Under the pieces are notes generated by a model that saw only the letters and a program-made list of their open reading frames with translations, was not told the DNA's origin and ran no database searches. A stretch of 64,000 bases of DNA from Candidatus Moranbacteria bacterium RIFCSPHIGHO2_01_FULL_55_24 (GTDB taxonomy: Bacteria; Patescibacteriota; Minisyncoccia; Moranbacterales; UBA1568), in contig MFRW01000002.1 of assembly GCA_001786575.1 (NCBI GenBank), positions 1,717-65,716 on the forward strand, read 5' to 3'. Of the stretch, positions 2,346 through 50,116 are shown one piece after another. Numbering within the stretch: the stretch's first letter is position 1; each line of letters starts with the position of its first letter. Position numbers and translations under genes: made by a program.

Positions 2346-2357
2346 AGACCCTCTTTT

Positions 2358-8104: not shown

Positions 8105-8113
8105 CGCTACCGT

Positions 8114-8905
8114 ATGAAAGGCATCATCCTCGCCGGAGGAACAGGCACCCGGCTCTTGCCGCTCACAGCGATCACCTCGAAACAGCTTCTGCCCGTCTAT
8201 GACCGCCCGATGATCTTCTATCCTCTGAATACGCTCATCAGCGCCGGCATCAAGGATATCCTCATCATCGTCGCCCCGAACCATTCCGGGAATTATCTCA
8301 ACCTGCTCGGTTCCATGTTCCGGAAGTTCGGCGTGAATATCTCTTTCATCGTCCAGAAAGAGCCGCGCGGCCTGGCCGAAGCGTACCTTCTCGCGGAAGA
8401 TTTTCTCGATGACCAGCCGAGCACTCTCGTCTTGGGGGACAACGTTTTCGAAGACGATTTTACGGAAGCGATCCAAAGCTTCCAGGGAGGGGGGCGCGTC
8501 TTCGCCAAAGAAGTCCCCGACCCGGAACGTTTCGGAGTAGTGGAATTCGATGCGGACCAGAAGGTGCTTTCCATAGAGGAGAAGCCGGTTGCACCGAAAA
8601 GCCATTTCGCCATACCGGGCATCTACATTTTCGACGCCGAAGCGGTCGCAGTGGCGAAGAAGCTCGCACCTTCGGAACGAGGCGAACTGGAAATCACCGA
8701 TCTCCAGCGGCATTATCTGAAACAGGGAAACTTGGATGTACGTATGGTTTCGGGAGCGTGGTTCGATACCGGAACGCATGAAGCGCTCTTCGAAGCGGGG
8801 GCGTATGCAAAAGAGAAGAAATTGGGCGAACGTTTCCATCCGATGATCAATGAAGCCATCGCCATCTTCAACCAGGAGTTCAAGAAATCAGTCTCGCTTA
8901 AATAA
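8114..8905 (+). CDS. rmlA: Glucose-1-phosphate thymidylyltransferase
   Basis: MKGIILAGGTGTRLLPLT...ERGELEITD is the classic RmlA signature. Confidence 0.9.
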   Translation: MKGIILAGGTGTRLLPLTAITSKQLLPVYDRPMIFYPLNTLISAGIKDILIIVAPNHSGNYLNLLGSMFRKFGVNISFIVQKEPRGLAEAYLLAEDFLDDQPSTLVLGDNVFEDDFTEAIQSFQGGGRVFAKEVPDPERFGVVEFDADQKVLSIEEKPVAPKSHFAIPGIYIFDAEAVAVAKKLAPSERGELEITDLQRHYLKQGNLDVRMVSGAWFDTGTHEALFEAGAYAKEKKLGERFHPMINEAIAIFNQEFKKSVSLK

Positions 8906-13868: not shown

Positions 13869-13871
13869 GCC

Positions 13872-15584: not shown

Positions 15585-17393
15585 ATGCGCCAATCCCATA
15601 TACGCAACTTCTGCATCATCGCCCATATCGATCACGGCAAATCCACGCTGGCTGATCGCCTGTTAGAGCTGACCAAAACGGTCGAGCAGCGCAAGATGAA
15701 AGAGCAGCTCCTCGATCAGATGGATCTCGAGCGGGAACGCGGCATCACGATCAAGCTCCAGCCGGTCCAGATGCACTATGCGTACCAGGGCGAGGAGTAC
15801 CTGCTGAACCTGATCGATACCCCGGGCCATGTGGATTTCCACTACGAAGTGTCGCGTTCCTTGGCGGCCGTCGAAGGCGCGATCCTCCTGGTAGATGCCA
15901 CGAAAGGCGTGCAGGCCCAGACGCTCGCCAATCTCTACCTGGCCATCGAGCAGGGACTCGAAGTCGTCCCGGTAGTGAACAAAGTCGACCTGCCGAATGC
16001 CGAAGTAGAGAAGACCAAGAAGGAGATCATGCATATCTTAGGCTGTACCGAAGACGCTATCCTCGAGGCTTCCGGCAAGACCGGTCTCGGCGTCGAGGCG
16101 GTGCTAAAGCGTGTCATCGAACGCGTACCCGCCCCCGAAGGCGATGAGGCAGCGCCGCTCCGCGCTCTTATTTTCGATTCTGTTTACGATACCTACAAAG
16201 GCGTAGTGGCCTATGTGAAGGTGGTGGACGGTAGCGTGAAGCGGGACGACGTCCTCTATATGCTCGCTACCGACAAGGAAAGCGTGACCGTAGAGGTCGG
16301 CTGCTTCAAACCGAAAATGCTTGCGACGCCCAAGCTTCTGGCGGGGGATATCGGATACATCGCCACCGGCCTCAAGGACGTGTCGCACTGCCGGGTGGGG
16401 GATACTATCACCTGGAAGACGACCGACCGCGAGAAGGATATGAGCACGATCGCTCTTCCCGGTTACCGCGAGATCAAACCGGCCGTCTACGCGAGCTTCT
16501 ACCCGCTGGACGGAGACGAGTATACGATGATGCGGGATGCTCTGGATAAGCTGAAGCTCAATGATGCCGCTTTCGTGTTCGAGCCGGAGTCGAACCAAGC
16601 CTTGGGACGAGGCTTCCGCTGCGGCTTCCTGGGACTCCTCCACCTCGAGATCATCCAGGCCCGCTTGGAGCGCGAGTTCGGCATCATGCCGACCATCACT
16701 ACTCCCTCGGTGGTCTACGAGCTCCAGATGAGGGGCGTTCCCGGACGCACCCCGCTCTATTCGCCTTCCGATATGCCCGACCTGGCCGGAATCGAGAAGA
16801 TTTACGAGCCGTACGTAGCGCTTTCCCTGGTAGTCCCGAGCGAATATCTGGGGAACGTCATGAGTCTGATGCAGACAATACGGGCCGAATACAAGAATAC
16901 CGAGTACATCGATGCGGGCCGCGTCTACCTCTCTTTCGAGGCGCCGCTCATGGACGTGATCGTCAATTTCCACGACGACCTGAAAAGCGTCTCTTCCGGC
17001 TATGCCTCCATGAACTACGAGCCGATCGGCTACCGCGAAAGCGACGTCGTGAAGCTCGACATCATGGTAGCGGGAGACAAGATAGATGCTTTCGCCCGCA
17101 TGATTCCCAGAGGGAACGCCCATACGGAAGGCAAGCGAGTCGTGGAAAAATTGAAAGAAGTCATCCCGCGCCAGAACTTCGCCATCGCGATCCAGGCGGT
17201 TATCGGCGGAAAAATAATCGCCCGCGAGACGATCTCGGCCTTCCGCAAGGACGTGACGTCGAAACTGTACGGGGGAGACTTCTCCCGCAAGAAGAAGCTT
17301 CTGGAAAAACAGAAGAAGGGCAAGAAGAAGATGCGTGACATCGGCAAGGTGTCTATCCCATCCCAGGCATTCCTCGCGGTGCTCCGCAAGTAG
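15585..17393 (+). CDS. lepA: Elongation factor 4 (LepA)
   Basis: NFCIIAHIDHGKSTLADRLL, DTPGHVDF and NKVDL GTPase motifs are present. The conserved LepA C-terminal domain is present. Length is 602 aa. Confidence 0.95.
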   Translation: MRQSHIRNFCIIAHIDHGKSTLADRLLELTKTVEQRKMKEQLLDQMDLERERGITIKLQPVQMHYAYQGEEYLLNLIDTPGHVDFHYEVSRSLAAVEGAILLVDATKGVQAQTLANLYLAIEQGLEVVPVVNKVDLPNAEVEKTKKEIMHILGCTEDAILEASGKTGLGVEAVLKRVIERVPAPEGDEAAPLRALIFDSVYDTYKGVVAYVKVVDGSVKRDDVLYMLATDKESVTVEVGCFKPKMLATPKLLAGDIGYIATGLKDVSHCRVGDTITWKTTDREKDMSTIALPGYREIKPAVYASFYPLDGDEYTMMRDALDKLKLNDAAFVFEPESNQALGRGFRCGFLGLLHLEIIQARLEREFGIMPTITTPSVVYELQMRGVPGRTPLYSPSDMPDLAGIEKIYEPYVALSLVVPSEYLGNVMSLMQTIRAEYKNTEYIDAGRVYLSFEAPLMDVIVNFHDDLKSVSSGYASMNYEPIGYRESDVVKLDIMVAGDKIDAFARMIPRGNAHTEGKRVVEKLKEVIPRQNFAIAIQAVIGGKIIARETISAFRKDVTSKLYGGDFSRKKKLLEKQKKGKKKMRDIGKVSIPSQAFLAVLRK

Positions 17394-28891: not shown

Positions 28892-30214
28892 TTGAAGCGG
28901 CGGAATACCAAAAAAATGAGGCAAATTTTCATACGTCTGGCGAAAAACTCCTTTATTCGGAACAGCTTCGTGCTCTTTGCGGGCACGATGATCGTGAACG
29001 TCTTGAACTACGTGTTTCACCTGGTGGTGGGTCGCATGGTAGAGCCGGCGGCGTACGGGGAAATCGAGTCGCTTATCTCGCTTCTGGCGATTATTTCCGT
29101 GCCGGCTGCTACGCTGACGCTCATCGCCACCAAATACGCGGCCAATATGAAGGCAGGCCAGGATACGCGCGGGGTGCGCATCCTCTCGCGTTACCTCAAC
29201 CGCAAGCTTTTCTTTTACGGATTGCCCCTGCTCGTGCTCGCGTTCTGCCTGACTCCTCTGGTGAAGCGCTTTCTCAATATCGGGAGCAATCTCCCGATCC
29301 TCTACCTGTGGGGAGTGATGGCGCTTTCTTTCCTAAGCGCGGTGACGGCCGGGATCCTCACGGGATGGCAGAAATTTTTCCATACCAATATCTCCGGAGT
29401 GCTTTCTACGATCCTGAAGCTCGGAGCTGCTTTCTTGTTCATCCGCTGGGGGTTCGGGGTGAGCGGAGTGATCGGAAGCTATGCTCTGGCGATACTTTTC
29501 GGATATCTCATCTCCCTCTTTTTTCTCCGGCGCTTCTTTTATCAAGACGCTTCTCCGGAGGATAAGTCCGTGGAACCGCACTTCCCTTCGCTCAAGGGGT
29601 ACGTACTCCCGGCTTTCTACGGGACGCTCGCTGTTGCGATTCTCGGAAATGCGGATATGATCTTCGCCAAGCATCACCTGGGGGCAGAGGCATCCGGAGA
29701 GTACGGAGCGCTCTTCATAGTAGCGAAAACGATCTTCTTCGTCACCGGCGTGCTGACCACGGTGCTTTTCGCGATGTCGGCGGAAGAGAGCGCGAGCGAA
29801 AAAAGAGCGACGTACACCTTCCGGATCGCGGCAGGACTCACCTGTCTTACGGCTCTCGTCTCGGTATTCTTTTTCTCGCTTTTTCCGGGCTTGGTGATGG
29901 GGGTATTCTTCGGAGAGAAGTATCTGGCTGTAAGCCATCTTCTGGGATGGTTCGCGCTCGCGGCCGGGACATACTCGATTGCCAACCTGTTTCTCCAGTA
30001 TCTCCTCTCGCTCCATAAGACTCGCATAGCCTCGCTCTTTTTGGCTCTTTCCGGCCTAGAAATAGCCGCTTTGTTTTTCTTCGGAGAGGGCTTGTATGCT
30101 ATAATCGGGATAACAATCGGGACACAGATGCTTGCCGCTCTCCTGGGCCTCTTTTTCGTGCTGAAGGAAAACCATCATGCCAAAGCTGATTTCTATCGTC
30201 ATCCCAGTCTATAA
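28892..30214 (+). CDS. wzx: Oligosaccharide flippase (Wzx/MOP superfamily polysaccharide biosynthesis protein)
   Basis: 440 aa with about 12 predicted TM helices. The N-terminal pattern is typical of RfbX/Wzx. It overlaps the downstream GT2 by 38 nt. Confidence 0.75.
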   Translation: MKRRNTKKMRQIFIRLAKNSFIRNSFVLFAGTMIVNVLNYVFHLVVGRMVEPAAYGEIESLISLLAIISVPAATLTLIATKYAANMKAGQDTRGVRILSRYLNRKLFFYGLPLLVLAFCLTPLVKRFLNIGSNLPILYLWGVMALSFLSAVTAGILTGWQKFFHTNISGVLSTILKLGAAFLFIRWGFGVSGVIGSYALAILFGYLISLFFLRRFFYQDASPEDKSVEPHFPSLKGYVLPAFYGTLAVAILGNADMIFAKHHLGAEASGEYGALFIVAKTIFFVTGVLTTVLFAMSAEESASEKRATYTFRIAAGLTCLTALVSVFFFSLFPGLVMGVFFGEKYLAVSHLLGWFALAAGTYSIANLFLQYLLSLHKTRIASLFLALSGLEIAALFFFGEGLYAIIGITIGTQMLAALLGLFFVLKENHHAKADFYRHPSL

Positions 30215-31130
30215 CGAGGAGAAGAATGTCCCTGCGGTAGCAGGGGCGCTTCGCGATGTCTTGGCCGGTTTGTCGTACGACTATGAGATCATTTTCGTAA
30301 ACGACGGCAGCCGCGATAACAGTCTGCCGGAAATCTGCCGCTTGTCGCAGAATGACGCGCGGATCAAAGGCATCGACTTTTCCCGGAATTTCGGCAAGGA
30401 AGCGGCCACATCGGCCGGCTGCCATGCGGCGGCAGGGGATGCGGTCATCACCATGGATGCCGATCTCCAGCACCCGCCGGCCTTGATCCCGGAGCTCATC
30501 AGGCACTGGGAGGACGGCGCGGAAGTCGTCTATACCGTCCGCAAGAAGACGAAAGGCATCAACATAATGAAAAAGATTACTTCCAGCCTGTATTACTGGA
30601 TGTTCAAGAAGATGTCCTCGGTGGCGACGGAACCGCGTTCGACGGACTTCCGCCTCATGGACAAGAAAGTGATCGAGATGTTCCGGCGCCTGCCGGAGCG
30701 CGGGCGCATGTTCCGCGGCCTGATCGATTGGATGGGATTCAAGCGCCAGCGGGTAGAGTTCGATGCGAATGAGAGGCTCCACGGGAAAGCCGGATACTCG
30801 TACCAGAAGCTCTTCCGCCTGGCTATGAACAGCTTCACGTCCTTTTCCCTTCTGCCCCTGAAGCTGGCCGGTTATCTGGGGCTACTTATTACCTTTTTCA
30901 GCGGATTGCTCCTCTTGATAATGTTAGCGGCACGCTGGGGATTTAATCCTCATCTTTTTACTCCGCTTTCAGTACTAGCGACAATAAATATTTTCTTGGT
31001 AGGCATCGTTCTCATCTCTCTCGGTTTCATCGCGCTCTATATCGCCCGTATCCACGACGAAGTGATCGACCGCCCGCTCTATATCGTAAGAGAAAAGATC
31101 AATCTGGATAACGGGATGAAAGGGGAATAA
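30177..31130 (+). CDS. GT2 polyprenyl-phosphate sugar transferase (GtrB/ArnC-like)
   Basis: [10 protein letters not shown]...FVNDGSRD...DADLQHPP (DxD) is followed by two C-terminal TM helices, as in DPM1/ArnC/GtrB. Confidence 0.8.
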
Positions 31131-34121: not shown

Positions 34122-34174
34122 ACACTTTCTCTCTTAATAAAGCCTTAAATACAGTATATCACCGACTACTTTGC

Positions 34175-34203
34175 TTGACATAATATACAATATGTGCTAG
34201 AAT
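34175..34203 (+). promoter_or_regulatory. Promoter TTGACA-N17-TAGAAT with an extended -10 (TGcTAGAAT)
   Basis: -35 at 34175-34180 and -10 at 34198-34203. An approximately 85-nt leader runs to the ATG at 34291. Confidence 0.55.
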
Positions 34204-34290
34204 GTTATGTCGTTGTGTAATACATAGCGATAGAGTTCCTTTCAGCGATGAGAGGCACCGAAAGTACAGCACCTTAGCACGGAGGGTCTC

Positions 34291-34749
34291 ATGCCCAAAC
34301 TTAGCGTGGAAGAAATGACGCAATATGGCGTCGTGGTCGATGGCGAAGTGATGGACAACGGCGAGCAGCGCTTCCGCCTTATGTTGAATGGCAATGGGTA
34401 CGTCTGGACACAGCCGTCGGCAGATCAGCCGCCAGCTTGGCAGAATGCCCACCTGCACAAGGGTGTGCTCGAGACGTACATCGTCCAGACTGGCAAGATA
34501 GCTGTCGCTTCCCTCTACGAGGGAGAGCGTATGGTGAAGATCTACCATGCCGGCGATGTCGTCACGACGGAACTGAACGTTCCGCACAACGTGTACCTCT
34601 TTGCCGGCGCCGGCATCCATACGGTCAAGCACGGAACGCCGATCGGTAACCCCGAGAAGAGCGGTGCTGACTGGTACCCGGCAGATCCGGACTTCGATGT
34701 CTGGTCGAAATCTCTCAACGAGGCGACGATTAACGAACTTGCTTCGTGA
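34291..34749 (+). CDS. Cupin-like small protein (hypothetical)
   Basis: 152 aa. HLHKGVLETYIV...G...H suggests a cupin fold. No specific family was recognised. Confidence 0.4.
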   Translation: MPKLSVEEMTQYGVVVDGEVMDNGEQRFRLMLNGNGYVWTQPSADQPPAWQNAHLHKGVLETYIVQTGKIAVASLYEGERMVKIYHAGDVVTTELNVPHNVYLFAGAGIHTVKHGTPIGNPEKSGADWYPADPDFDVWSKSLNEATINELAS

Positions 34750-34800
34750 TCAGAACCGGATTCGAAACTTCCCAGGTTTTGTTACAAACCTGGACCTTGA

Positions 34801-34830
34801 GCGCTGTGAAGAAATTCACGGCGCTTTTTT
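34801..34830 (+). terminator. Rho-independent terminator
   Basis: GCGCTGTGAA-gaaa-TTCACGGCGC followed by TTTTTTCTT. It is preceded by a second hairpin, CCAGGTTT-tgttac-AAACCTGG. Confidence 0.65.
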
Positions 34831-35005
34831 CTTAAAAAAATCTCTCCTGACCTTAAGGATGGACCTACGATGTAGAACCAGTGTCTTTTCAGAAGACTAT
34901 AATGAGCTTGACAAATCTGATAAAAAATGTTTTTATGTAGTGTCTGGGTATAAGATTCAGACCCCGATATTTCGTCGGATGTTCTTTACAAGAGAGGAAT
35001 TCATC

Positions 35006-35752
35006 ATGTGCTTCAATGTGCTGAAAACCCTGATTTTTTCGATGGATCGTCTCCTCTATTATCCGCCGATCGAAGAGGAGATCGAATGGAACATGGAGCG
35101 GCTCTACCGCTTTCAGCAGCCGGAGACTATCACCGAAGAAGACGTCGTCAACAAGGTACTCCGTGGCTGGGCCAGGCCGGTCATGATCAAGAACTGCGGC
35201 CGTTTGATTTCTGTGTCTAGCGAACAGGGGGAGGGCAGCCGGATGATATTCAAAGACGGCAAGTTGCTCCGGGAATCAAGTCCCGAAGAACTCCGCAAGC
35301 AGGTTGAGGCCTTCGAGCAGCGGATGACCAGAGATACCCCGAAGCTTCGCCAAGAGTTCGAACACGCCGTAATCGACGGCAAACGCGTCGTCGAAGTCGG
35401 TGATATGGTTTGGTGGCAAAACACTGACCACACTCAACTTCTCGCCGCGTGTCGGCTGGAAGATGGTTCGTTCTTGGTACTTGGCTATGACGATGGTACG
35501 TTCGTCATTCCCAAGCCCAGCAGGCACTCATGGGTGCTTAGTGGACTCGAGGTATTGCCGAAGCTTGAACTTGATGATGGGAAAATCAACATCCATTTCG
35601 GGGAAGAACATTACCTCATGGCTGCGTACAGCTATGACGAAAACGATGGTCGACACAAGTGGATGTATGTCGGCACCGGTTATAGCGGGGATGCTGCTCT
35701 CGAGGCATTTGCCAAGCATGGCATGAGTTTTCATGCCGAAAGTGACGAGTAG
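35006..35752 (+). CDS. Hypothetical protein (248 aa) with no recognisable family
   Basis: The ATG at 35006 has the SD AGAGGAA. The product is an acidic, soluble protein. The upstream 400 nt of the ORF-track ORF (34601-) overlaps the cupin gene and terminator, so it is rejected as coding. Confidence 0.5.
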   Translation: MCFNVLKTLIFSMDRLLYYPPIEEEIEWNMERLYRFQQPETITEEDVVNKVLRGWARPVMIKNCGRLISVSSEQGEGSRMIFKDGKLLRESSPEELRKQVEAFEQRMTRDTPKLRQEFEHAVIDGKRVVEVGDMVWWQNTDHTQLLAACRLEDGSFLVLGYDDGTFVIPKPSRHSWVLSGLEVLPKLELDDGKINIHFGEEHYLMAAYSYDENDGRHKWMYVGTGYSGDAALEAFAKHGMSFHAESDE

Positions 35753-35780
35753 AGGCAGTTTATCGGAGTTGAATTGACAA

Positions 35781-35815
35781 GGCGTTTCCCTACAGGGGAG
35801 ACGCCTTTTTCTTTT
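35781..35815 (+). terminator. Rho-independent terminator
   Basis: GGCGTTTCCC-taca-GGGGAGACGCC followed by TTTTTCTTTT. Confidence 0.6.
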
Positions 35816-35882: not shown

Positions 35883-36860
35883 ATGATCAAATTTAGCTTC
35901 ATTGTTCCGGTCAAGGAGATCAATGCTTATATCCGCGAGGCGACTCCTATTATTCTCCAGATTCCGCGGGATGATTACGAAATCCTCATCTATCCGGATG
36001 AAGCGACGGATGAAACCTGGCCCAAGACCAGACAGATTCCGACCGGCCATTGCGGACCGGCAGAGAAGCGGAGCCGAGCTATCCAAGACGCACAGGGAGA
36101 AATATTGGTATTCATCGACGATGACGCTTATCCGGCACCGGATTTTCTGGACAAGCTGGAAGAAGATTTCCGGGATGCAGCCATAACGGCGGTGGGCGGT
36201 CCGGCTATTACGCCGCCGCATGACAGTTTCTGGCAGAAGGTATCCGGAGCGGTTTTCTTGAGTTCGCTTTCGGGCGGCGCTCCGGAGCGCTATGTACCGG
36301 TAGGGGAGAAGCACTTCGTTGATGATTGGCCGAGCGTCAATCTTTCGATCAGGAAAGAGGCTTTTGCCCGTTTGGGAGGATTCGACTGCGCGTATTGGCC
36401 GGGAGAGGATACCAAACTCTGCCTGGATCTCACTACGAAGCTGCAAGGGAAGATCCTTTATGATCCAGCGCTTCTCGTCTATCATCATCGGCGCGAGGGA
36501 CTGCTCCGCCATATGAAGCAGGTGAGCGGTTATGGATTGCATCGGGGGTTTTTCGCGAAAACCTACCCGGCGACCTCTTTCCGCTTCAAGTATTTCTTGC
36601 CGGCAGCTTTCCTCTTGTTTGCAGTTGTCGGGGCTTTGTTGGTGATGTTCCAGCCGGCATTCCTCCCATGGTATCTCTTGGGTTGGGCACTGTATGCCTT
36701 GGCGCTCGGGAAGGCAGCTTGGGATATCTACCGCTACGAGCGGAGCCTGGCTCTGACGCTTCATGCGCTCTATTATATCTTTTTCACCCATCTCGCGTAT
36801 GGGTGGAGCTTTCTTAAGGGTTTTTTGTGGGTACGGAAGCTCAAAAGCAAGCTTCGCTGA
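35883..36860 (+). CDS. Glycosyltransferase family 2 with a C-terminal membrane domain
   Basis: A GT2 A-fold (ILIYPDEATDE, VFIDDDAYP DxD). The C-terminal third contains 3-4 TM helices. Confidence 0.75.
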   Translation: MIKFSFIVPVKEINAYIREATPIILQIPRDDYEILIYPDEATDETWPKTRQIPTGHCGPAEKRSRAIQDAQGEILVFIDDDAYPAPDFLDKLEEDFRDAAITAVGGPAITPPHDSFWQKVSGAVFLSSLSGGAPERYVPVGEKHFVDDWPSVNLSIRKEAFARLGGFDCAYWPGEDTKLCLDLTTKLQGKILYDPALLVYHHRREGLLRHMKQVSGYGLHRGFFAKTYPATSFRFKYFLPAAFLLFAVVGALLVMFQPAFLPWYLLGWALYALALGKAAWDIYRYERSLALTLHALYYIFFTHLAYGWSFLKGFLWVRKLKSKLR

Positions 36861-36945
36861 ACGATCCGTAAGGACATAGCTTAGACCAGTACGCTCTTTT
36901 ATGGTATGATATCCGAGTAAATCAACTGACGAACTCGGCTTTCGG

Positions 36946-37233
36946 ATGAGTTTCTGGAGGCCGAAAAGAACAAAAAATATGGAAGAATCGCAGAATGCAC
37001 GCACCGTGAAACATGATGATATCGAGATCCGCATCCTTCGTGAAAAATGCATCGGCGCGGCGACCTGCGTGGTGTATAGCCCATCCACTTTCGATTTGGA
37101 TGAGAGCAATATCGCTGTAGTGAAAGAAGGCCAATGGGATGAGCTGGAAAAGATCGTAGCTGGTGCCCAATCATGCCCGGTATTGGCAATCGAGGTATAC
37201 CAAGCTGGAAAAAAACTCTATCCAACTTCTTAA
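36946..37233 (+). CDS. Small [4Fe-4S]/[3Fe-4S] single-cluster ferredoxin
   Basis: CIGAATCV...SCPVLAIE fits the CxxAxxC...CP pattern of Pyrococcus-type ferredoxins. The start may be at the internal Met (36979). Confidence 0.6.
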   Translation: MSFWRPKRTKNMEESQNARTVKHDDIEIRILREKCIGAATCVVYSPSTFDLDESNIAVVKEGQWDELEKIVAGAQSCPVLAIEVYQAGKKLYPTS

Positions 37234-37244
37234 AATCTCACTCT

Positions 37245-38951
37245 ATGTCTACTATCCTTGATATACAAAAAAGGAACGAAAGCCCTTCCCGGGAGAAGAT
37301 CGATGTGACAGTCGTTGTCGGCTATCCTCCGATCAAGTCTGACAAAGGCGTGCCGCTTTTGAGCCAGAACCGCCAGTTCCAGTACTTCAACGCGCCGACG
37401 TACATCTATCCGATGGTGCCGGCGTATGCCGCATCGAATCTCCAGGACCAGGGATATCAGGTCTACTGGATGGACGGTATTTCAGAACACAAGGAATACG
37501 ACGAGTGGGTAGATGAACTGCGTGCGACGGGCGCCCAGTACCTCATGGTGGAGTCCAAATCTCCGATCATCAAGACACACTGGAAGCAGATCAATGACCT
37601 GAAGGAGAAACTTCCGAATCTGAAGCTGATCTGGGTGGGCGACCATCTTACATTCATGCCCCTGGAAACTTTGGAAAACAGCAATGTAGACTATGTCCTC
37701 GTGGGCGGTGATTATGACTTCTTGGTAGCCAATCTCTTGAACCATATCCATCGCGGCGAAGAGCTGGAAGGCGGGGTGTACTGGCGCGAAGGGGACGTCT
37801 CTATCAAAGCTGCTCCCAAAGAAGTCATCACTTTAGGAAACGGGAAAAAAGTAGCTACTTCCGGTCCGGATTGGGTGCGCCATAATCTCGATACTTTGCC
37901 TTTCGTTGATCGTGACCTGACCCGTTGGGAGCTCTATGCCTATGAGAATGGGAACTACAAGTATCTCCCGGGCACCTATATGTACAGCGGCCGCGACTGC
38001 TGGTGGAACCGCTGCACCTTCTGCGTGTGGGACCACACGATCAATCCGATCGGTACGTACCGCAGTTTCTCTCCGGAACGTCTCTTCGCCGAAGTGAAGC
38101 ACGTGGTGGATAAGTATGGCATCAAGGAAATCTTTGACGATGCCGGAACGCTCTTCATCGGCCCCAAGCTGAAGAAATTCTGCGAATTATTGATCGAGAG
38201 CGGCTATAACAAGAAAGTGAAGTATGGCTGCAACATGCGCTTCAATGCCCTGAACCAGGAATACTACAACCTGATGGGCAAGGCCGGCTTCCGCTTCATC
38301 CTCTACGGCATGGAGTCCGGCAACCAGAAGACGCTCGATAAGCTGGACAAGGGGACCAAGGAAGAGGATACGATCAATGGCGCCCGTATGGCATCGCAAG
38401 CCGGGCTCGAACCGCATGCGACAATCATGCTCGGGTATCCATGGGAAGATTATGAGGATTCCAAGCGCACGATAGCGGTCGCGAAATACTGCTTCAAGAA
38501 GGGCTACTTTGCTACGATGCAAGCGACGATTGTCGTGCCATACCCAGGGACGCCGCTCTGGAAAGAGTGCAAGGAGAAGGGATTGCTCCTGACCGAGGAT
38601 TACGATGATTACGACATGCGCGGATCAGTCATGAAGATTCCTCTCACCCAGGAACAGCTTATGAGCCTGACCCAGGATCTCTATTCCGCCTTCTTCTCAC
38701 CCCAGTTTATCTTCCGGAAGATCTTGAGCATCCGCAGCTTCGATGATATCAAATTCTTCACGTCTGCCGCCTATCGTCTGTTCGGACACCTACTGGACTT
38801 TGATCCGAACCAGACCAAAGTAAGTTTTACCTCGAAGGCTTTCTGGAAGACAGTCTTCAGCAAGATGTTCGGACACTTCTTCCGCCCGAAGACTTCGGTG
38901 GACGCCGAGAAGGATGCTGTACGTCTTCAGGATAGTGCTGTGAACCGCTAA
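37245..38951 (+). CDS. B12-binding-domain radical SAM enzyme (class B rSAM, methyltransferase-like)
   Basis: An N-terminal cobalamin-binding-like Rossmann domain (VTVVVGYPP...) is followed by a radical SAM core with the cysteine triad in DCWWNRCTFCVWD and a GYPWED-type C-terminal region. Length is 568 aa from the ATG at 37245. Confidence 0.8.
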   Translation: MSTILDIQKRNESPSREKIDVTVVVGYPPIKSDKGVPLLSQNRQFQYFNAPTYIYPMVPAYAASNLQDQGYQVYWMDGISEHKEYDEWVDELRATGAQYLMVESKSPIIKTHWKQINDLKEKLPNLKLIWVGDHLTFMPLETLENSNVDYVLVGGDYDFLVANLLNHIHRGEELEGGVYWREGDVSIKAAPKEVITLGNGKKVATSGPDWVRHNLDTLPFVDRDLTRWELYAYENGNYKYLPGTYMYSGRDCWWNRCTFCVWDHTINPIGTYRSFSPERLFAEVKHVVDKYGIKEIFDDAGTLFIGPKLKKFCELLIESGYNKKVKYGCNMRFNALNQEYYNLMGKAGFRFILYGMESGNQKTLDKLDKGTKEEDTINGARMASQAGLEPHATIMLGYPWEDYEDSKRTIAVAKYCFKKGYFATMQATIVVPYPGTPLWKECKEKGLLLTEDYDDYDMRGSVMKIPLTQEQLMSLTQDLYSAFFSPQFIFRKILSIRSFDDIKFFTSAAYRLFGHLLDFDPNQTKVSFTSKAFWKTVFSKMFGHFFRPKTSVDAEKDAVRLQDSAVNR

Positions 38952-39066: not shown

Positions 39067-39591
39067 ATGAGTTTGCTTTTTCATTTATCCCTTCATGTTT
39101 TCCTCGCTTTGCTTGCCGGATTCTTCGTCTGGCTCCTCTGGCGCCGCCCGGTTGTTTCTTTTGCCGCGGCTTTCCTCGGGGGAGTACTGATCGACCTTGA
39201 TCACCTCATCGATTACTTTTTGGCTTTCGGGTTGCATTTCAGGCTGGATTATTTCCTCCAGGGATACCAGTTTCTGAAGAGCGACAAGCTGTATGTCTTA
39301 TTCCATGGCTGGGAATATGTGGTGCTCCTGGCGGTGCTTGCCTTCGCTATGAAGAGTAAATTATGGCTTAAATCAGCCATTTTATCATTATCCCTCGGAA
39401 TGTTTTTTCATTTGCTAATAGATGTTAATATAAATGATGGGATGACCCTCAAAGGGTATTCTGTTTTTTATAGGACAGCGCAGGGTTTCGAGATTCAGGA
39501 AATCATGACCCCAGAACATTATAAGGACCACCAGCTCCGGAAGCAGGGGGCAACTTTCTTGGACGAGCCTGCTCTCTCGGATAAATTATAG
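39067..39591 (+). CDS. Hypothetical polytopic membrane protein (possibly a DUF457/YdjM-like metal-dependent hydrolase)
   Basis: 174 aa with 4-5 TM helices and conserved His/Asp residues (DLDHLIDY, HGWEY, HLLIDVN). Confidence 0.4.
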   Translation: MSLLFHLSLHVFLALLAGFFVWLLWRRPVVSFAAAFLGGVLIDLDHLIDYFLAFGLHFRLDYFLQGYQFLKSDKLYVLFHGWEYVVLLAVLAFAMKSKLWLKSAILSLSLGMFFHLLIDVNINDGMTLKGYSVFYRTAQGFEIQEIMTPEHYKDHQLRKQGATFLDEPALSDKL

Positions 39592-40650: not shown

Positions 40651-41901
40651 ATGCTGTACGAAGAAATAAAACACTGCCGGATATGCGGTAACAAAAACTT
40701 GGTTTCGGTAGTTGATCTGGGAAGCCAGGCTTTGACCGGCGTTTTCCCGGCAGCAGGAGAAACGGTTGAGGAAGGTCCGCTTGAGATGGTGAAATGCTTC
40801 AGCGAAAGCGGAGAGGATGTCTGCGGCCTCGTACAGCTCAAGCATGATTATGAGATGGAAAAACTGTATGGAGACAACTATGGCTATCGTTCAGCACTCA
40901 ATAGGTCCATGGTGGAGCACCTTCAGGGGATAGTTGCGAAAATTGAGAGGAGAGTCTCTCTTACTTCCGGAGACTTGGTAGTGGATATCGCGAGCAACGA
41001 CGGAACGCTCCTCGCTGCGTACAAGAATCACGAACTTGATTTCTTAGGCGTAGATCCGACCTCGGAAAAGTTCAAGGAATATTACCCGGATTACATCAAG
41101 CATATCCCGAAATTCTTCTCGGCCGAAGCCGTAAGAAGCCAGGCGGGAGAGAAGAAAGCAAAAGTCGTGACCTCTATTGCGATGTTCTACGATCTTCCAG
41201 AACCGCTCCGCATCATGCAGGAAATTGAAAGCATCCTGGCTGACGACGGGATCTGGGTAGTAGAACAGAGCTATATGCCGGCTATGATCGATAATGTCTC
41301 TTACGATACGATTTGCCACGAGCATCTGGAGTACTACGCGCTGAAACAGTTCGTATGGATGGCTGAACGCTCCAACCTGAAGGTCATCGATGTGGAGTTC
41401 AATGATACCAATGGTGCGAGCTTCGCTATCACTTTCGCGAAGAAGGATGCACCTTATGAAGAGGCTGCAGAGAAAGTCAGAGAAATTCTCGGGAAAGAGG
41501 TCGAGCGCGGATTTGATGCTCTCGCAATATACGAGGAATTCCGGAAGAATACCGAGAAGCATAAAGAAGATCTGGTTGAATTCTTCAAGAATGCCGCTCG
41601 AGAAGGAAAGAAAATCTTCGGATACGGGGCATCGACCAAGGGGAACGTGATACTCCAGTATTGCGGGCTTACTCCGGAAGATATGCCGTATATCGCGGAA
41701 GTGAATGAATATAAATTCGGCAGATTCGTTCCAGGCACGATGATTCCGATTATCTCGGAAAAGGAGGCTCGAGAAATGCATCCTGATTACTTCATGGTGC
41801 TCCCGTGGCACTTCAAGAAGGGGATTGTGGAAAGGGAGCAGGAATACCTGAATTCCGGAGGCCACCTCTTGTTCCCTTTGCCGAAAATCGAGGTTGTATG
41901 A
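40651..41901 (+). CDS. NDP-hexose C-methyltransferase (TylCIII/CoeE-like) with an N-terminal Cys4 zinc-binding motif
   Basis: CRICGN...C...C at the N-terminus, then a class I SAM-methyltransferase core (VVDIASNDG) and the C-methyltransferase C-terminal domain. Length is 416 aa. Confidence 0.65.
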   Translation: MLYEEIKHCRICGNKNLVSVVDLGSQALTGVFPAAGETVEEGPLEMVKCFSESGEDVCGLVQLKHDYEMEKLYGDNYGYRSALNRSMVEHLQGIVAKIERRVSLTSGDLVVDIASNDGTLLAAYKNHELDFLGVDPTSEKFKEYYPDYIKHIPKFFSAEAVRSQAGEKKAKVVTSIAMFYDLPEPLRIMQEIESILADDGIWVVEQSYMPAMIDNVSYDTICHEHLEYYALKQFVWMAERSNLKVIDVEFNDTNGASFAITFAKKDAPYEEAAEKVREILGKEVERGFDALAIYEEFRKNTEKHKEDLVEFFKNAAREGKKIFGYGASTKGNVILQYCGLTPEDMPYIAEVNEYKFGRFVPGTMIPIISEKEAREMHPDYFMVLPWHFKKGIVEREQEYLNSGGHLLFPLPKIEVV

Positions 41902-47617: not shown

Positions 47618-50116
47618 ATGTTAAAAAAGCTTCGAATAAGTAAAGTTTTGAAATACTTCCAGGGGTCTAGAGGGATTCTCTTCGCAATTCTTCTTTTGGC
47701 ATTGGCGTTGCGGGTCTGGGGTATCGATTCGAGAGACATCTGGTATGATGAGCTTCTGACAATACAGCAATCAGAGAAAAGTATTTCGGAAATCAATGTT
47801 GATGTTCCGACGCCAATACACTATTACTTCGTCCATCTTTTCCTCTTTTTCGGTAAGAGTACCTCGGTGCTTGGGCTACCCTCGGTTATTTTCGGTCTTC
47901 TGACCGTCCTCCTTGTTTTTTTGACGGCAAAGAGGATTGCGGATGAAAGAGTCGGATTGGTCGCCGCGTTTCTCTTGGCGATTTCTCCGATGCACATCGA
48001 ATTCTCCCAGCAAATTCTTTTTTTCTCATACTTCACATTCTTTTCTTCGCTTATCCTCTATCTTGTTACCGACTTCATATTTCATTTTGAAGAAGGCAGG
48101 TTCAAATGGGGCCATCTTCTGCTTCTCGTCTTCGCGAACTGGGTGAATGTCCTGACCCAGATGCTCGCTCTTGTTCTCATCCCTGTCCAGCTGCTCTTTT
48201 TCTGCTATTTGCTCGCGAAGAACCCGAAAGTAATGCTGGTCTTCAAGAAGTACCTGGCATTAATATTGATACTGATTGCCGCGCTCTTCTCGATACTTCT
48301 GTCCATAGGGAGCGGGGGATATGCGAGTTTTCTCGAGACGCTCCACATCGGTTTCGAAAGACCGATTACGGTCGGATACTCGCTTTCTAGCCAGTTGGGG
48401 TCGACGATAGTCAGTTCCCCAATGAAACTCTTCCAGGCGATGTTTTCGTGGTTCGGAATCGGAGGAGGTATCGGGCTTCCTGTCTATGTTTGTTTCTTCT
48501 TCATAGGCTTGATTGCTTTGTTTTGGAAGAAAGTTTCCCGATCCGCTGCTTTCTTCTTTGTTCTCTGGCTTGCGGCACCGTTCGTTGTCCTTTTTTCAGT
48601 GAGGATTGAGCACTGGTTCGAGGAAAAGTATTTCATCTTCATGATTCCGGTCTATCTGATCTTTATCGCCTTAGGAATCGTCTTCTTTTCCGAATATACA
48701 GGAAGGTTGGTGAGAGAAAAAATCAGCATTTTGAAAATCAAAGGTTTTGCAGTTTTCTTTCTGGCGCTGATCTTAGTCGGCATCGCTTTCTTAGCGGTCG
48801 AACCGATCAAGAGCCGGACGGCTTTCGGATTCCCATTCGAGGGTTATGCGAAATACAACTGGAGAAAGGTCTATGATTATTTGAAGAAAAACGTGAATGA
48901 GAACGATAGAGTATTCCTCGTGAAAGGAGGATCCGATTTTTTGGACTATTACTATGCTGCCGATAAGAACGAAAGCTTATTGTTGGACGAAGAATCCATA
49001 ATGAAGCTTTCTTCGAAGGAGTACTCTCATCTTGTCGAAAACCAAGAGCAGAATTATTTCATTTCTATCCCGGATTACAACTATCTCTTTTTGAGCGATA
49101 TCACGACTTATGAAAAGATCAAGATGGTAGGGAATTTCGGGATATATAAAATACGATTCAAAAAAGAGAGTCCGGTAGAGATAAAAAGGGACGCAGCTGG
49201 CGAATGGGAATATTATGAAGACTTCCGGACGTCGCGGTATATAGGGCAGGCGCATGACTGGAAAAATAGCGCTACGACGTATTCGGATGTGCCGGGTATT
49301 CCTGAAACCGAAGGCTTCAATGAACTCGTGCCGCTCAACTCCGGAGAATCTTTCATAGATTACAAGCTCGTTCTTCCTGAAGGAACAAAGAGTTTTTACC
49401 TGAAATCAGGATTCTCGCTTGATCAGGGATCTTCATTCCAGATACTCATTGGCGAAAGCCAGGATGCGCTGCGTGTTATTTATGACCAGTCAGCCGGAGA
49501 ACTCTCTTACTTCCTCCCCGAGATGAAGATTGACTATGATACAAAGAAGTCGAAAGATCTGTTTCTGCGGATGCGTTTTAACCAGGCTCCCGGCGCTTCA
49601 GGAGAATTGAACAAGTCAGGGCTCAAATTTTTTAGCTTGAGCAGCCGCTTGTACGACGGTGTCAGATTTCCCGAAGACTATACGCCGCAAAAATCCGTTA
49701 AGGGCTCCTCCCAGGAATACCTCTATAATGCCTTTCTTGAGATAGAAAAGAGCTCAAAATGGACCCATGCTACTATTATGAGTGATGGCTGGATCCAAAC
49801 GAATGACGGATTCTTGGTAAGGATTTACGGTACCAAGGAGGCTAACCCTTTGGTATTCAAATTCGCTACGGGGGAAGAGGAACGCGATTGTGATCTCGAG
49901 ATAAAATCTTTCGCGAACCATGATAATCCATTCGAGGTGTATACAAGCCAGGATGGAAAGACTTGGGAACTTCTCAAGAAAATGAATGATAATGTATTTA
50001 AAATTGATACGTTCAGCATCAAGGATATCGCTTCAGGAGATCTCTTCCTGAAATTTACTTCCGAAAAAGAAGGAGTTTCAAGTCAGATCAGGAACATAAA
50101 GGCAATATGTAAGTGA
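47618..50116 (+). CDS. GT-C membrane glycosyltransferase (PMT/ArnT GT39/GT83-like) with a large C-terminal extracytoplasmic domain
   Basis: 832 aa. A DE motif sits in the first extracytoplasmic loop (DIWYDELLT). About 11 TM helices are followed by a roughly 450-aa beta-rich soluble domain. Confidence 0.6.
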   Translation: MLKKLRISKVLKYFQGSRGILFAILLLALALRVWGIDSRDIWYDELLTIQQSEKSISEINVDVPTPIHYYFVHLFLFFGKSTSVLGLPSVIFGLLTVLLVFLTAKRIADERVGLVAAFLLAISPMHIEFSQQILFFSYFTFFSSLILYLVTDFIFHFEEGRFKWGHLLLLVFANWVNVLTQMLALVLIPVQLLFFCYLLAKNPKVMLVFKKYLALILILIAALFSILLSIGSGGYASFLETLHIGFERPITVGYSLSSQLGSTIVSSPMKLFQAMFSWFGIGGGIGLPVYVCFFFIGLIALFWKKVSRSAAFFFVLWLAAPFVVLFSVRIEHWFEEKYFIFMIPVYLIFIALGIVFFSEYTGRLVREKISILKIKGFAVFFLALILVGIAFLAVEPIKSRTAFGFPFEGYAKYNWRKVYDYLKKNVNENDRVFLVKGGSDFLDYYYAADKNESLLLDEESIMKLSSKEYSHLVENQEQNYFISIPDYNYLFLSDITTYEKIKMVGNFGIYKIRFKKESPVEIKRDAAGEWEYYEDFRTSRYIGQAHDWKNSATTYSDVPGIPETEGFNELVPLNSGESFIDYKLVLPEGTKSFYLKSGFSLDQGSSFQILIGESQDALRVIYDQSAGELSYFLPEMKIDYDTKKSKDLFLRMRFNQAPGASGELNKSGLKFFSLSSRLYDGVRFPEDYTPQKSVKGSSQEYLYNAFLEIEKSSKWTHATIMSDGWIQTNDGFLVRIYGTKEANPLVFKFATGEEERDCDLEIKSFANHDNPFEVYTSQDGKTWELLKKMNDNVFKIDTFSIKDIASGDLFLKFTSEKEGVSSQIRNIKAICK

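What the first reader, a model, noticed from the sequence alone, without database searches (positions are those of the whole stretch)
36946..38951. Ferredoxin + cobalamin-binding radical SAM enzyme embedded in a sugar-nucleotide cluster, with an apparently non-canonical Cys spacing
A small single-cluster ferredoxin sits directly upstream of a 568-aa B12-binding radical SAM protein, in the middle of the glycosyltransferase and sugar-modification genes. Class B rSAM enzymes in sugar pathways (GenK, Fom3 and MoeK5 are examples) perform radical C-methylation at unactivated carbons. The ferredoxin would be the dedicated electron donor for reductive SAM cleavage. The cysteine motif reads DCWWNRCTFC, that is Cx4Cx2C rather than the usual Cx3Cx2C. 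This suggests radical methylation, or another rearrangement, of a nucleotide sugar or of the assembled glycan, which is rare in bacterial surface glycans.
Basis: partly seen in the sequence, partly recalled or inferred. Interest (0 to 1): 0.7.

Follow-up and report, generated by a model that had tools for sequence, protein, structure and literature searches.

The report
Conserved CPR ferredoxin–radical SAM glycan module
A small ferredoxin and a B12-type radical SAM enzyme with an unusual but strictly conserved iron-sulfur motif belong to an uncharacterised gene cassette found in hundreds of ultra-small (CPR/Patescibacteria) bacteria. The cassette most likely makes a radical modification to a membrane-lipid-linked sugar, and the exact chemistry is unknown.

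Summary
Window 36946-37233 encodes a three-Cys single-cluster ferredoxin. Window 37245-38951 encodes a 568-aa two-domain radical SAM protein (Rossmann/B12-like domain plus rSAM domain) whose cluster motif is CWWNRCTFC (Cx4Cx2C). That motif is identical in 131 of 134 close homologues.

The organism is a Candidatus Moranbacteria (CPR) MAG. At least 561 species genomes carry the enzyme, nearly all of them Patescibacteria. Its identity to the window protein is about 66-75% across phyla, compared with 47% for LepA.

The enzyme sits in a conserved cassette: Wzx-like flippase, GtrB/DPM1-like GT2, membrane GT2, ferredoxin, rSAM. Sister-clade enzymes in other phyla (Cx7Cx2C) keep the GT2 and flippase partners but lack the ferredoxin. 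In one locus the three partners are fused into a single protein.

No curated family threshold is reached: HpnJ scores 145 bits against a 578 cut-off and BchE 101 against 481. The closest structure is AprD4, which binds no cobalamin, followed by TsrM, MgmA and OxsB.

Cobalamin use and C-methylation are therefore plausible but unproven. The link to the neighbouring GDP-sugar genes is not conserved. My best reading is a ferredoxin-driven radical modification, with methylation favoured, of a polyprenyl-phosphate-linked sugar. I class it as a new variant of a known kind, of moderately high interest.

The parts
28892..30214 (+). Wzx-like (MOP-family) flippase, first gene of the conserved cassette. 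In this genome it is separated from the rSAM by about 4.7 kb of inserted genes.
   Evidence: PF01943 scores 45.5 bits. It is homologous to the ~421-aa gene that heads the cassette in L001, L004 and L006. A homologue lies upstream on the same strand in 45 of 59 loci with at least 6.5 kb of upstream sequence.
30177..31130 (+). GT2a: a GtrB/PgfS/ArnC-like polyprenyl-phosphate glycosyltransferase.
   Evidence: PDB GtrB (5ekp) 248.7 bits and ArnC 137 bits. NCBIfam PgfS 224 bits and ArnC 154 bits, both below their cut-offs. A cassette homologue is present in 50 of 65 loci.
35779..35807 (+). Terminator-like hairpin (13 pairs followed by a T-run). It marks the start of the GT2b-fdx-rSAM transcription unit.
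   Evidence: This is a consensus scan only.
35883..36860 (+). GT2b: a membrane-anchored GT2 (325 aa, C-terminal helices) and the most constant neighbour of the rSAM.
   Evidence: PF00535 and PF13632. The deposited protein P0403 is 325 aa. The AF2 model has pLDDT 92 with four long C-terminal helices. Fold neighbours are BcsA, hyaluronan synthase and PcManGT. A homologue lies upstream on the same strand in 58 of 65 CPR loci and in 4 of 5 non-CPR sister loci.
36946..37233 (+). Single-cluster ferredoxin with three Cys (C35, C41, C77). The probable true start is 36979.
   Evidence: PF13370 and PF13459 pass their cut-offs. The best PDB match is 4id8. CxxAxxC...CP was found in 56 of the 57 ferredoxin ORFs detected in the related loci; the regex failed on one. 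Identity to CPR orthologues in L001, L004 and L005 is 65-71%.
37048..37068 (+). Ferredoxin cluster motif CIGAATC (Ala where a 4-Cys ferredoxin has its second Cys). The third ligand, C77-P78, is at 37174-37179.
37245..38951 (+). Class-B-type radical SAM protein, 568 aa.
37404..37706 (+). Rossmann / B12-binding-like N-terminal domain (PF02310 match, residues 54-154). The clade-specific invariant loop LSQNRQFQ (residues 39-46) lies just upstream at 37359-37382.
37998..38024 (+). [4Fe-4S] cluster motif C252-x4-C257-x2-C260 (CWWNRCTFC).
38133..38150 (+). GGE-like SAM-binding motif FDDAGT (F297-T302).
   Evidence: F297 to G301 are invariant and T302 is at least 90% conserved. It aligns with OxsB A361-D362-E363 and the MgmA GGT.
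39067..39591 (+). 174-aa membrane protein of unknown family. It is an occasional downstream companion of the rSAM.
   Evidence: No Pfam hit. A homologue lies downstream in 14 of 63 loci.
47618..50116 (+). PMT_2 (GT-C fold) glycosyltransferase, a possible extracytoplasmic user of the lipid-linked sugar. The assignment is weak in this genome because the gene is 8.7 kb away.
   Evidence: PF13231. PMT_2 or TMEM260-type GT-C genes flank the rSAM in 15 of 63 CPR loci and in L090 and L091.

Best explanation
The ferredoxin and the rSAM are the redox and radical half of a conserved membrane-glycan cassette. Its other members are a Wzx-like flippase, a GtrB/DPM1-like GT2a and a membrane GT2b.

Proposed mechanism:
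1. GT2a loads a hexose onto a polyprenyl phosphate at the cytoplasmic face of the membrane. GT2b may extend it.
2. The 3-Cys ferredoxin passes an electron to the rSAM [4Fe-4S] cluster, which is held by C252, C257 and C260.
3. SAM is cleaved to give a 5'-deoxyadenosyl radical, which abstracts a hydrogen from an unactivated sugar carbon.
4. The substrate radical is resolved. My favoured outcome is methyl transfer from a cobalamin held in the N-terminal Rossmann domain, that is, C-methylation.
5. The modified lipid-linked sugar is flipped and used outside the cell, probably by a GT-C (PMT_2) transferase.

Shown here: the gene models, the domains, the invariant Cx4Cx2C and GGE-like motifs, the two-domain fold, and the conserved synteny and gene fusion.

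Inferred: the lipid-linked substrate (I put this at about 0.6), the direction of electron flow, cobalamin binding, and the chemical outcome (methylation about 0.35).
For: Domains and motifs.

Synteny: of 65 CPR loci with at least 4.5 kb upstream, 58 have GT2b, 50 have GT2a and 48 have the ferredoxin. Of 59 loci with at least 6.5 kb upstream, 45 have the Wzx-like gene.

The same partners accompany the Cx7Cx2C sister clade in Omnitrophota, Elusimicrobiota and Deltaproteobacteria MAGs. In L089, GT2a, the Wzx-like domain and GT2b are fused into one 1103-aa protein directly upstream of the rSAM.

Partner identities: GT2a resembles the polyprenyl-phosphate glycosyltransferases GtrB, PgfS, ArnC, DPMS and PpgS. 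GT2b has a membrane GT2-synthase fold and weak AglG similarity.

Ferredoxin: it occurs only in the CPR loci and is highly conserved.

Constraint: the rSAM is more conserved than LepA (73% vs 47%) and far more than its GT neighbours (medians 66% vs 37%, 29% and 24%). This argues for tight functional constraint rather than recent transfer. The cassette genes have near-core GC, unlike the downstream glycan island.

Precedents for methylation: Cx4Cx2C occurs in the sugar C-methylase GenD1, and HpnJ co-clusters with Fom3 and MoeK5 in similarity networks.
Against: - No substrate, product or cofactor has been observed. Everything beyond the sequence is inference.
- PF02310 is below its gathering score here.
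- The top structural neighbour, AprD4, binds no cobalamin.
- From general knowledge, CPR bacteria are not known to synthesise cobalamin. No cobalamin gene is present among the window ORFs scanned.
- The highest-scoring profiles are non-methylases (HpnJ, BchE).
- A CxxAxxC..CP ferredoxin is expected to hold a [3Fe-4S] cluster. From general knowledge such clusters are often not reducing enough for rSAM activation, so it could instead be an electron acceptor.
- 17 of 65 CPR loci lack an adjacent ferredoxin.
- GT2a's ~258-aa form matches polyprenyl-phosphate GTs only weakly.
- The acceptor of GT2b is unknown.
Confidence: 0.4

Rival explanations
1. A cobalamin-dependent C-methyltransferase acts on a nucleotide sugar, or on the assembled glycan, made by the neighbouring GDP-mannose, NDP-sugar and GT genes of this particular cluster.
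For: The gene lies among the GMD, a TylC3-type C-MT, epimerases and GTs. The architecture is class-B. GenD1 offers a Cx4Cx2C precedent.
Against: The downstream sugar-nucleotide genes are not conserved next to the rSAM in other genomes. Their GC is 0.42-0.49, against 0.52-0.54 for the cassette and 0.555-0.606 for core genes. The cluster already encodes a conventional NDP-sugar C-methyltransferase at 40651-41901. Cobalamin binding is unproven.
Confidence: 0.1
2. An HpnJ/Cds/OxsB-like non-methylating rearrangement. The enzyme would contract the ring of a lipid-linked hexose to a five-membered carbocycle (cyclitol), giving an acid-stable glycolipid head group.
For: HpnJ is the top profile for this protein and for every relative tested. 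HpnJ and Cds are proposed to contract lipid-linked hexoses. OxsB, a ring contractase, shares the Cx4Cx2C motif. The rSAM is coupled to a membrane GT2, much as HpnI is coupled to HpnJ.
Against: The HpnJ score is 145 bits against a 578-bit cut-off. GT2b shows no HpnI match at E<=0.01. No hopanoid or deacetylase genes are conserved nearby. A C1-C5 contraction would destroy the glycosyl-phosphate donor function, which fits poorly with the recurrent flippase and GT-C partners.
Confidence: 0.17
3. An AprD4-like, cobalamin-independent radical dehydratase or deoxygenase (or epimerase/oxidase) acting on the lipid-linked sugar. In this reading the Rossmann domain is structural or binds substrate.
Against: The NCBIfam AprD4 model scores only 35 bits against a 500-bit cut-off. 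No AprD3-like reductase is conserved in the cassette. The N-domain, including the LSQNRQFQ loop, is as strictly conserved as the catalytic core, which suggests a cofactor or substrate role. Sister-clade members pass PF02310.
Confidence: 0.15
4. The substrate is not a glycan. It could be a scavenged membrane-lipid chain or a protein or peptide, and the GT neighbourhood only reflects shared envelope function.
For: Weak hits to lipid-modifying and RiPP rSAM families: ladderane-type 57 bits, ApyD 73 bits and RiPP C-MT 64 bits. From general knowledge, CPR cells depend on host lipids.
Against: Linkage to GT2b and GT2a holds across phyla, start and stop codons overlap, and a three-partner fusion lies next to the rSAM. 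No precursor peptide or lipid-synthesis gene is conserved nearby.
Confidence: 0.06

Closest known systems
HpnJ (TIGR03471), hopanoid-associated B12-type rSAM proposed to contract BHT-glucosamine to a cyclitol ether
   Same: It is the best-scoring curated profile (144.7 bits). The domain order is the same. Its substrate is a lipid-linked sugar made by an adjacent GT2 (HpnI), which parallels the GT2b-rSAM pairing.
   Different: The score is a quarter of the family cut-off (577.6). HpnJ-like relatives carry the canonical CP[YF]xCTFC motif and lack the LSQNRQFQ loop. There is no hopanoid context and no ferredoxin in that system. HpnJ itself is biochemically uncharacterised.
OxsB (PDB 5UL2-4), cobalamin-dependent rSAM ring contractase
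   Different: The sequence match is marginal (18.6 bits). OxsB has extra N-terminal and helix-bundle domains, is 744 aa, and works with the partner OxsA on a nucleotide.
AprD4 (PDB 6FD2), radical SAM 1,2-diol dehydratase of apramycin biosynthesis
   Different: It binds no cobalamin. Identity is 15%, and the NCBIfam model scores 35 against a 500 cut-off. It needs the reductase AprD3, which is absent here.
Sugar and lipid-sugar C-methylases GenD1/GenK and MoeK5 (class B rSAM)
   Same: They are class-B enzymes acting on carbohydrate carbons. GenD1 and Sis14 are reported to have Cx4Cx2C. MoeK5 and Fom3 co-cluster with HpnJ.
   Different: Related methylase profiles (PhpK, HpnR, RiPP C-MT, MgmA) score only 44-64 bits. 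Those enzymes belong to antibiotic pathways, not to a phylum-wide core cassette.
Three-component polyprenyl-phosphate glycosylation systems (GtrA/B/C, PgfS-PgfM, ArnC-ArnT, haloarchaeal AglJ/AglG/AglR)
   Same: GT2a matches GtrB, PgfS, ArnC and AglJ. GT2b weakly matches AglG. A MOP-type flippase and GT-C (PMT_2) enzymes accompany the cassette.
   Different: From general knowledge, none of those systems contains a radical SAM enzyme or a ferredoxin. In them, the lipid-linked sugar is modified, where at all, by hydrolases or conventional methyltransferases.

Membership tests
Radical SAM superfamily (PF04055) | Profile match above the curated threshold | tested here: met
   PF04055 scores 54.5 bits against a 29.5 cut-off, over residues 250-409.
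Radical SAM superfamily (PF04055) | Three-Cys motif for the SAM-binding [4Fe-4S] cluster (canonically Cx3Cx2C) | tested here: met
   C252-x4-C257-x2-C260 has the three Cys with a one-residue longer first spacer. The spacing is kept in 134 of 134 close homologues. The same spacing binds the cluster in OxsB.
Radical SAM superfamily (PF04055) | GGE-like SAM-binding motif and partial TIM-barrel fold | tested here: met
Class B (cobalamin-dependent) radical SAM enzymes | N-terminal Rossmann-type B12-binding domain | tested here: inconclusive
Class B (cobalamin-dependent) radical SAM enzymes | Actually binds and uses cobalamin | not testable with these tools
   No diagnostic sequence motif exists, since binding is base-off/His-off. 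The nearest structure, AprD4, and ArsL homologues sit in the same similarity network without binding cobalamin.
HpnJ (TIGR03471) | Score at or above the equivalog cut-off | tested here: not met
   144.7 bits against 577.6. None of 10 relatives tested reaches it either.
HpnJ (TIGR03471) | Hopanoid gene context (shc, hpnH/I/K) | tested here: not met
   No such genes appear among the window ORFs scanned or in the annotated loci L001-L006. GT2b has no HpnI hit at E<=0.01.
BchE (TIGR02026) | Score at or above the equivalog cut-off | tested here: not met
   101.4 bits against 481.35.
AprD4 family diol dehydratase (NF033070) | Score at or above the equivalog cut-off, and an AprD3-type partner reductase | tested here: not met
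   35.1 bits against 500. No conserved reductase is in the cassette. The structural similarity is nevertheless the highest found.
Class B sugar C-methyltransferases (GenK, GenD1, MoeK5, Fom3) | Direct sequence or phylogenetic grouping with characterised methylases | not tested
   Their sequences could not be retrieved with these tools. The proxy methylase profiles (PhpK 54.7, HpnR 49.7, RiPP C-MT 64.3, MgmA 44 bits) are all far below their cut-offs.
Single-cluster ferredoxins (Fer4_13 / Fer4_15) | Profile match above threshold and Cx2Xx2C...CP ligands | tested here: met
   PF13370 33.7 vs 24.5 and PF13459 33.5 vs 22.4. The motif is CIGAATC...CP, with Ala at the position of the fourth ligand in 56 of 57 orthologues scanned. 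The cluster type ([3Fe-4S]) is inferred, not measured.

The most novel reading that the evidence does not exclude
This rSAM is the signature enzyme of an undescribed, ancient and near-core envelope pathway of CPR/Patescibacteria. In this reading a B12-like rSAM, possibly working without cobalamin and powered by its own [3Fe-4S] ferredoxin, performs a non-methylating radical transformation on a polyprenyl-phosphate-linked sugar. Candidate reactions are ring rearrangement, deoxygenation and C-C chemistry. The product would be a surface glycoconjugate so constrained that the enzyme evolves more slowly than translation factor LepA.
Probability: 0.25. Interest if true: 0.85.

Novelty: new variant of a known kind. 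Interest (0 to 1): 0.62.

Why it matters
CPR bacteria make up a large share of bacterial diversity, have minimal genomes, and live attached to hosts through a poorly understood envelope. A radical enzyme and its private ferredoxin are retained in hundreds of these reduced genomes. The enzyme is conserved at about 66-75% identity across phyla, above LepA at 47%. That pattern implies an important and chemically demanding step in making a surface glycoconjugate.

Identifying the product would have three consequences:
- It would give a first biochemical handle on a CPR-wide envelope component and a possible biomarker.
- It would test whether organisms without cobalamin synthesis run a cobalamin-dependent enzyme on scavenged cofactor, or whether this clade has dispensed with cobalamin.
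- It would assign function to a large rSAM clade with variable cluster-loop lengths (Cx4, Cx7, Cx9-17) that current curated families do not cover.

It would also add radical chemistry to the polyprenyl-phosphate glycosylation systems, where I know of no precedent.

Tried and rejected
- Auxiliary Fe-S cluster or SPASM/twitch domain: rejected. Beyond the three cluster Cys, only isolated conserved cysteines (C313, C329, C442) exist, with no motif. C313 is common to class B generally.
- Recent horizontal spread as the reason for the roughly 70% identity: rejected. Neighbouring cassette genes in the same loci are only 24-37% identical, and the cassette GC is close to core.
- Profile search of PDB sequences with the family alignment: it did not extend into the N-domain and added nothing.
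- AlphaFold-database fold search: the library was unavailable.
- Seven literature searches for any description of this CPR family or of an rSAM in a flippase/GT2 cassette found nothing relevant (only gave motif precedents).
- Direct alignment to GenK, Fom3, MoeK5, HpnJ, BchE and Cds: not possible because the sequences were not retrievable. NCBIfam profiles were used as proxies.
- Pfam at relaxed thresholds for the downstream 174-aa membrane protein and for ORF 34601-35752 gave no credible family.
- Whether the complete WWE3 genome CP006914.1 has cobalamin uptake or salvage genes could not be checked, because only 15.6 kb around the gene was available.
Full report
OBSERVATION

Two co-directional ORFs lie 12 bp apart on the + strand. 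The first, 36946-37233, is 95 aa. The second, 37245-38951, is 568 aa.

The small protein passes the single-cluster ferredoxin models PF13370 (33.7 bits vs 24.5) and PF13459 (33.5 vs 22.4). It has exactly three cysteines, arranged CIGAATC...CP. Orthologues are 81-82 aa, so the real start may be the ATG at 36979.

The large protein passes PF04055 (54.5 bits vs 29.5). It matches PF02310 (B12-binding) only below threshold, at 23.8 bits against 32.1. The motif DCWWNRCTFCVW lies at 37995-38030, so the spacing is Cx4Cx2C. Against MgmA (CPGNCTFC) it aligns as a one-residue insertion. The deposited protein is OGI22330.1 from a Candidatus Moranbacteria MAG.

The surrounding genes are glycan genes:
- Upstream: a phosphoglycosyl transferase, a Wzx-like flippase, a GtrB-like GT2, an epimerase, a nucleotidyltransferase and the membrane GT2 at 35883-36860.
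- Downstream: GDP-mannose 4,6-dehydratase, a TylC3-type C-methyltransferase, further GTs, methyltransferases and PMT_2.

IS THE MOTIF MEANINGFUL?

CWWNRCTFCVW is identical in 131 of 134 close homologues, and the other three keep the spacing.

In a library clustered at 50% identity, the nearest clade reads CW[WY]G[KR]C[TS]FC (Cx4). Sister groups read CWWR[KH]DGGCTFC (Cx7) or carry 9-17 residues in the first spacer. A few relatives have lost all three cysteines. The more distant HpnJ/BchE-like relatives, about 30% identical and about 470 aa, carry the canonical CP[YF]xCTFC.

The lengthened first spacer is therefore a derived trait of this clade. It is not unprecedented. OxsB binds its cluster with Cx4Cx2C, GenD1 and Sis14 are reported to have it, and RadicalSAM.org lists megaclusters with Cx4 to Cx11 spacers.

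A GGE-like motif is present. FDDAGT (38133-38150) is invariant, with T302 at least 90% conserved, and aligns with the OxsB Ala-Asp-Glu motif.

WHAT FAMILY?

No curated family is reached. NCBIfam scores against their cut-offs are:
- HpnJ: 144.7 vs 577.6
- BchE: 101.4 vs 481
- ApyD: 72.7
- RiPP C-methyltransferase: 64.3
- PhpK: 54.7
- HpnR: 49.7
- MgmA: 44
- AprD4: 35.1

Ten more distant relatives also fail every cut-off, and HpnJ or BchE is always on top.

Cobalamin binding is not solid. AprD4 and ArsL homologues sit in the same similarity network yet bind no cobalamin.

The wider clade shares an invariant loop after strand 1 (LSQNRQFQ). It also has GGD[YF]DF where typical class-B enzymes have GEGE. 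In solved class-B enzymes the residue beneath the corrin is polar in the non-methylases and hydrophobic in the methylases. I could not map the LSQNRQFQ loop onto that position structurally.

DISTRIBUTION AND CONSERVATION

More than 4,700 database proteins match. The best 120 are 68-91% identical and come from Moranbacteria, WWE3, Roizmanbacteria, Parcubacteria and Peregrinibacteria.

Nearly all are Patescibacteria. Several third-party assembly records carry taxon labels such as 'uncultured Gammaproteobacteria' that look unreliable.

Between the window organism and the L001 organism, the rSAM is 73% identical while the universal GTPase LepA is 47%. Over the non-Moranbacteria loci, median identity to the window proteins is:
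- rSAM: 66%
- ferredoxin: 55%
- GT2b: 37.5%
- GT2a: 29%
- Wzx-like: 24%

In this genome the cassette genes have GC 0.52-0.54, close to core genes at 0.555-0.606. The downstream sugar-nucleotide and GT genes have GC 0.42-0.49. Strong purifying selection explains this pattern better than recent transfer of the cassette.

GENOMIC CONTEXT

In 80 related loci the recurrent order is Wzx-like, GT2a, GT2b, ferredoxin, rSAM.

Of 65 loci with at least 4.5 kb of upstream sequence:
- 58 have GT2b
- 50 have GT2a
- 48 have the ferredoxin within 1.5 kb
- 42 have all three

The Wzx-like gene is present in 45 of 59 loci with at least 6.5 kb upstream. PMT_2-type GT-C genes follow the rSAM in 15 of 63 loci, and a homologue of the 174-aa membrane protein follows in 14 of 63.

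In the window the cassette is split. The Wzx-like gene and GT2a lie at 28892-31130, and GT2b, fdx and rSAM at 35883-38951. About 4.7 kb of other genes separates them, and a strong terminator-like hairpin sits at 35779-35807.

The downstream GDP-sugar genes are not conserved neighbours elsewhere.

The Cx7 sister clade occurs in Omnitrophota, Elusimicrobiota and Deltaproteobacteria MAGs. It is again flanked by GT2b, often with overlapping stop and start codons, and by GT2a, Wzx-like and GT-C genes. In L089, GT2a (residues 27-266), the Wzx-like domain (325-737) and GT2b (758-1083) are fused into one 1103-aa protein immediately upstream of the rSAM. None of the five non-CPR loci has the ferredoxin.

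PARTNER IDENTITIES

- GT2a in the window matches GtrB (248.7 bits), ArnC (137 bits) and PgfS (224 bits). The shorter cassette form matches DPMS, GtrB, PpgS and AglJ weakly. These are polyprenyl-phosphate glycosyltransferases.
- GT2b has a high-confidence model (pLDDT 92) consisting of a GT-A domain plus four long C-terminal helices. Its fold neighbours are membrane GT2 synthases: BcsA, hyaluronan synthase and PcManGT. It also gives weak profile hits to MftF, EpsD and AglG.
- The ferredoxin's closest solved relatives are small single-cluster ferredoxins such as 4id8. Ala replaces the second Cys of the CxxCxxC motif in 56 of 57 orthologues scanned. From general knowledge of such ferredoxins, this implies a [3Fe-4S] cluster.

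MECHANISM

The shown facts are the genes, domains, motifs, fold, synteny and fusion. From these I infer that the enzyme acts at the cytoplasmic membrane face on a polyprenyl-phosphate-linked mono- or disaccharide made by GT2a and GT2b. That sugar would then be flipped by the Wzx-like protein and used by a GT-C transferase.

I also infer that CPR cells supply a dedicated ferredoxin to reduce the rSAM cluster, because they lack a suitable housekeeping reductant.

The chemical outcome is unresolved. C-methylation through cobalamin is my single favoured option, at about 0.35. Three points support it:
- Most characterised class-B enzymes are methylases.
- GenD1 shares the motif.
- A methylated sugar would keep its donor function.

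The rivals are AprD4-like dehydration without cobalamin and HpnJ/OxsB-like ring contraction. Ring contraction fits the profile ranking. It would, however, destroy the glycosyl-phosphate donor that the flippase and GT-C context implies.

The 3-Cys ferredoxin could equally be an electron acceptor in an oxidative reaction.

COMPARISON AND NOVELTY

The protein is a radical SAM enzyme of class-B architecture. It is not a member of HpnJ, BchE, AprD4 or any curated methylase family. Public annotations call it only 'radical SAM protein', 'B12-binding domain-containing radical SAM protein' or, wrongly, 'anaerobic Mg-protoporphyrin cyclase'.

I found no paper on the family or on an rSAM embedded in a polyprenyl-phosphate glycosylation cassette. 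I rate it a new variant of a known kind.

VERDICT

Interest is 0.62.

Noticed in passing
Homologues P0136-P0138, P0140, P0141, P0164, P0352, P0373 (665-972 aa); the insertion point corresponds to window ~38001, just after C252: Several relatives carry an intein with a LAGLIDADG homing endonuclease inserted inside the [4Fe-4S] cluster-binding loop, directly after 'RDC'. The insertion was inspected directly in P0137, P0138 and P0164. Pfam on P0138 gives LAGLIDADG_3 and Intein_splicing (the latter below its cut-off), and precomputed Pfam supports P0352 and P0373. P0136, P0140 and P0141 are inferred from their length and split matches. This fits the extreme conservation of the site.
   Followed up: partly
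Representatives P0154, P0157, P0159, P0160, P0166 (460-512 aa): A sister group of full-length relatives has lost all three cluster cysteines (for example 'SLYNSYNSVSS' in place of CWWNRCTFC) while keeping the two-domain layout. These may be catalytically dead pseudo-rSAM proteins.
   Followed up: no
L089:3630-6941 (Elusimicrobiota MAG): A fusion of GT2a, the Wzx-like membrane domain and GT2b in one 1103-aa protein lies directly upstream of the rSAM. The same 15-kb locus holds three B12-type rSAM paralogues (1869-3443, 7001-8512, 13431-14825), and L090 holds two.
   Followed up: partly
window 32000-62000 versus 1-32000: GC falls from 0.54-0.60 to 0.40-0.49 across the downstream glycan genes (GMD, C-MT, GTs, PMT_2). 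The cassette genes stay at 0.52-0.54. This suggests a variable, possibly acquired glycan island abutting a core-like cassette.
   Followed up: partly
L001:6597-7961, L003:244-1608; L004:7149-7970: Some genomes have an extra gene inserted between the ferredoxin and the rSAM. In L001-L003 it is a DIT1_PvcA (isocyanide-synthase-like) protein, and in L004 an FTR1 iron permease.
   Followed up: no
window 40651-41901: A TylC3-type NDP-hexose C-methyltransferase (Methyltransf_13/14) lies two genes downstream of the rSAM. A homologous gene appears in L004 (13821-15053). Conventional sugar C-methylation is therefore already encoded nearby.
   Followed up: no
window 34601-35752 (+) and 34159-34632 (-): These are a 383-aa TTG-start ORF with an Arg/Ser/Thr-rich N-terminus and an overlapping antisense 157-aa ORF. 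Neither matches any family, so the gene models here are uncertain. A strong terminator-like hairpin follows at 35779-35807.
   Followed up: partly
window 39067-39591: A 174-aa polytopic membrane protein with His/Asp-rich motifs (DLDHLIDY) and no Pfam family. A homologue lies downstream of the rSAM in 14 of 63 related loci.
   Followed up: partly
window 15585-17393; L001:1424-3184; L004:1-1068: LepA lies close to the cassette in several CPR genomes, directly upstream of the Wzx-like gene in L001 and within 2.7 kb in L004, and 11.5 kb upstream in the window. This hints at wider conserved synteny.
   Followed up: no
L005/L006:1178-2431: An S-adenosylhomocysteine hydrolase gene lies about 2.4 kb upstream of the Wzx-like gene, on the opposite strand, in one Parcubacteria genome. 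It could be relevant if the rSAM is a methylase that produces SAH, or it could be coincidence.
   Followed up: no
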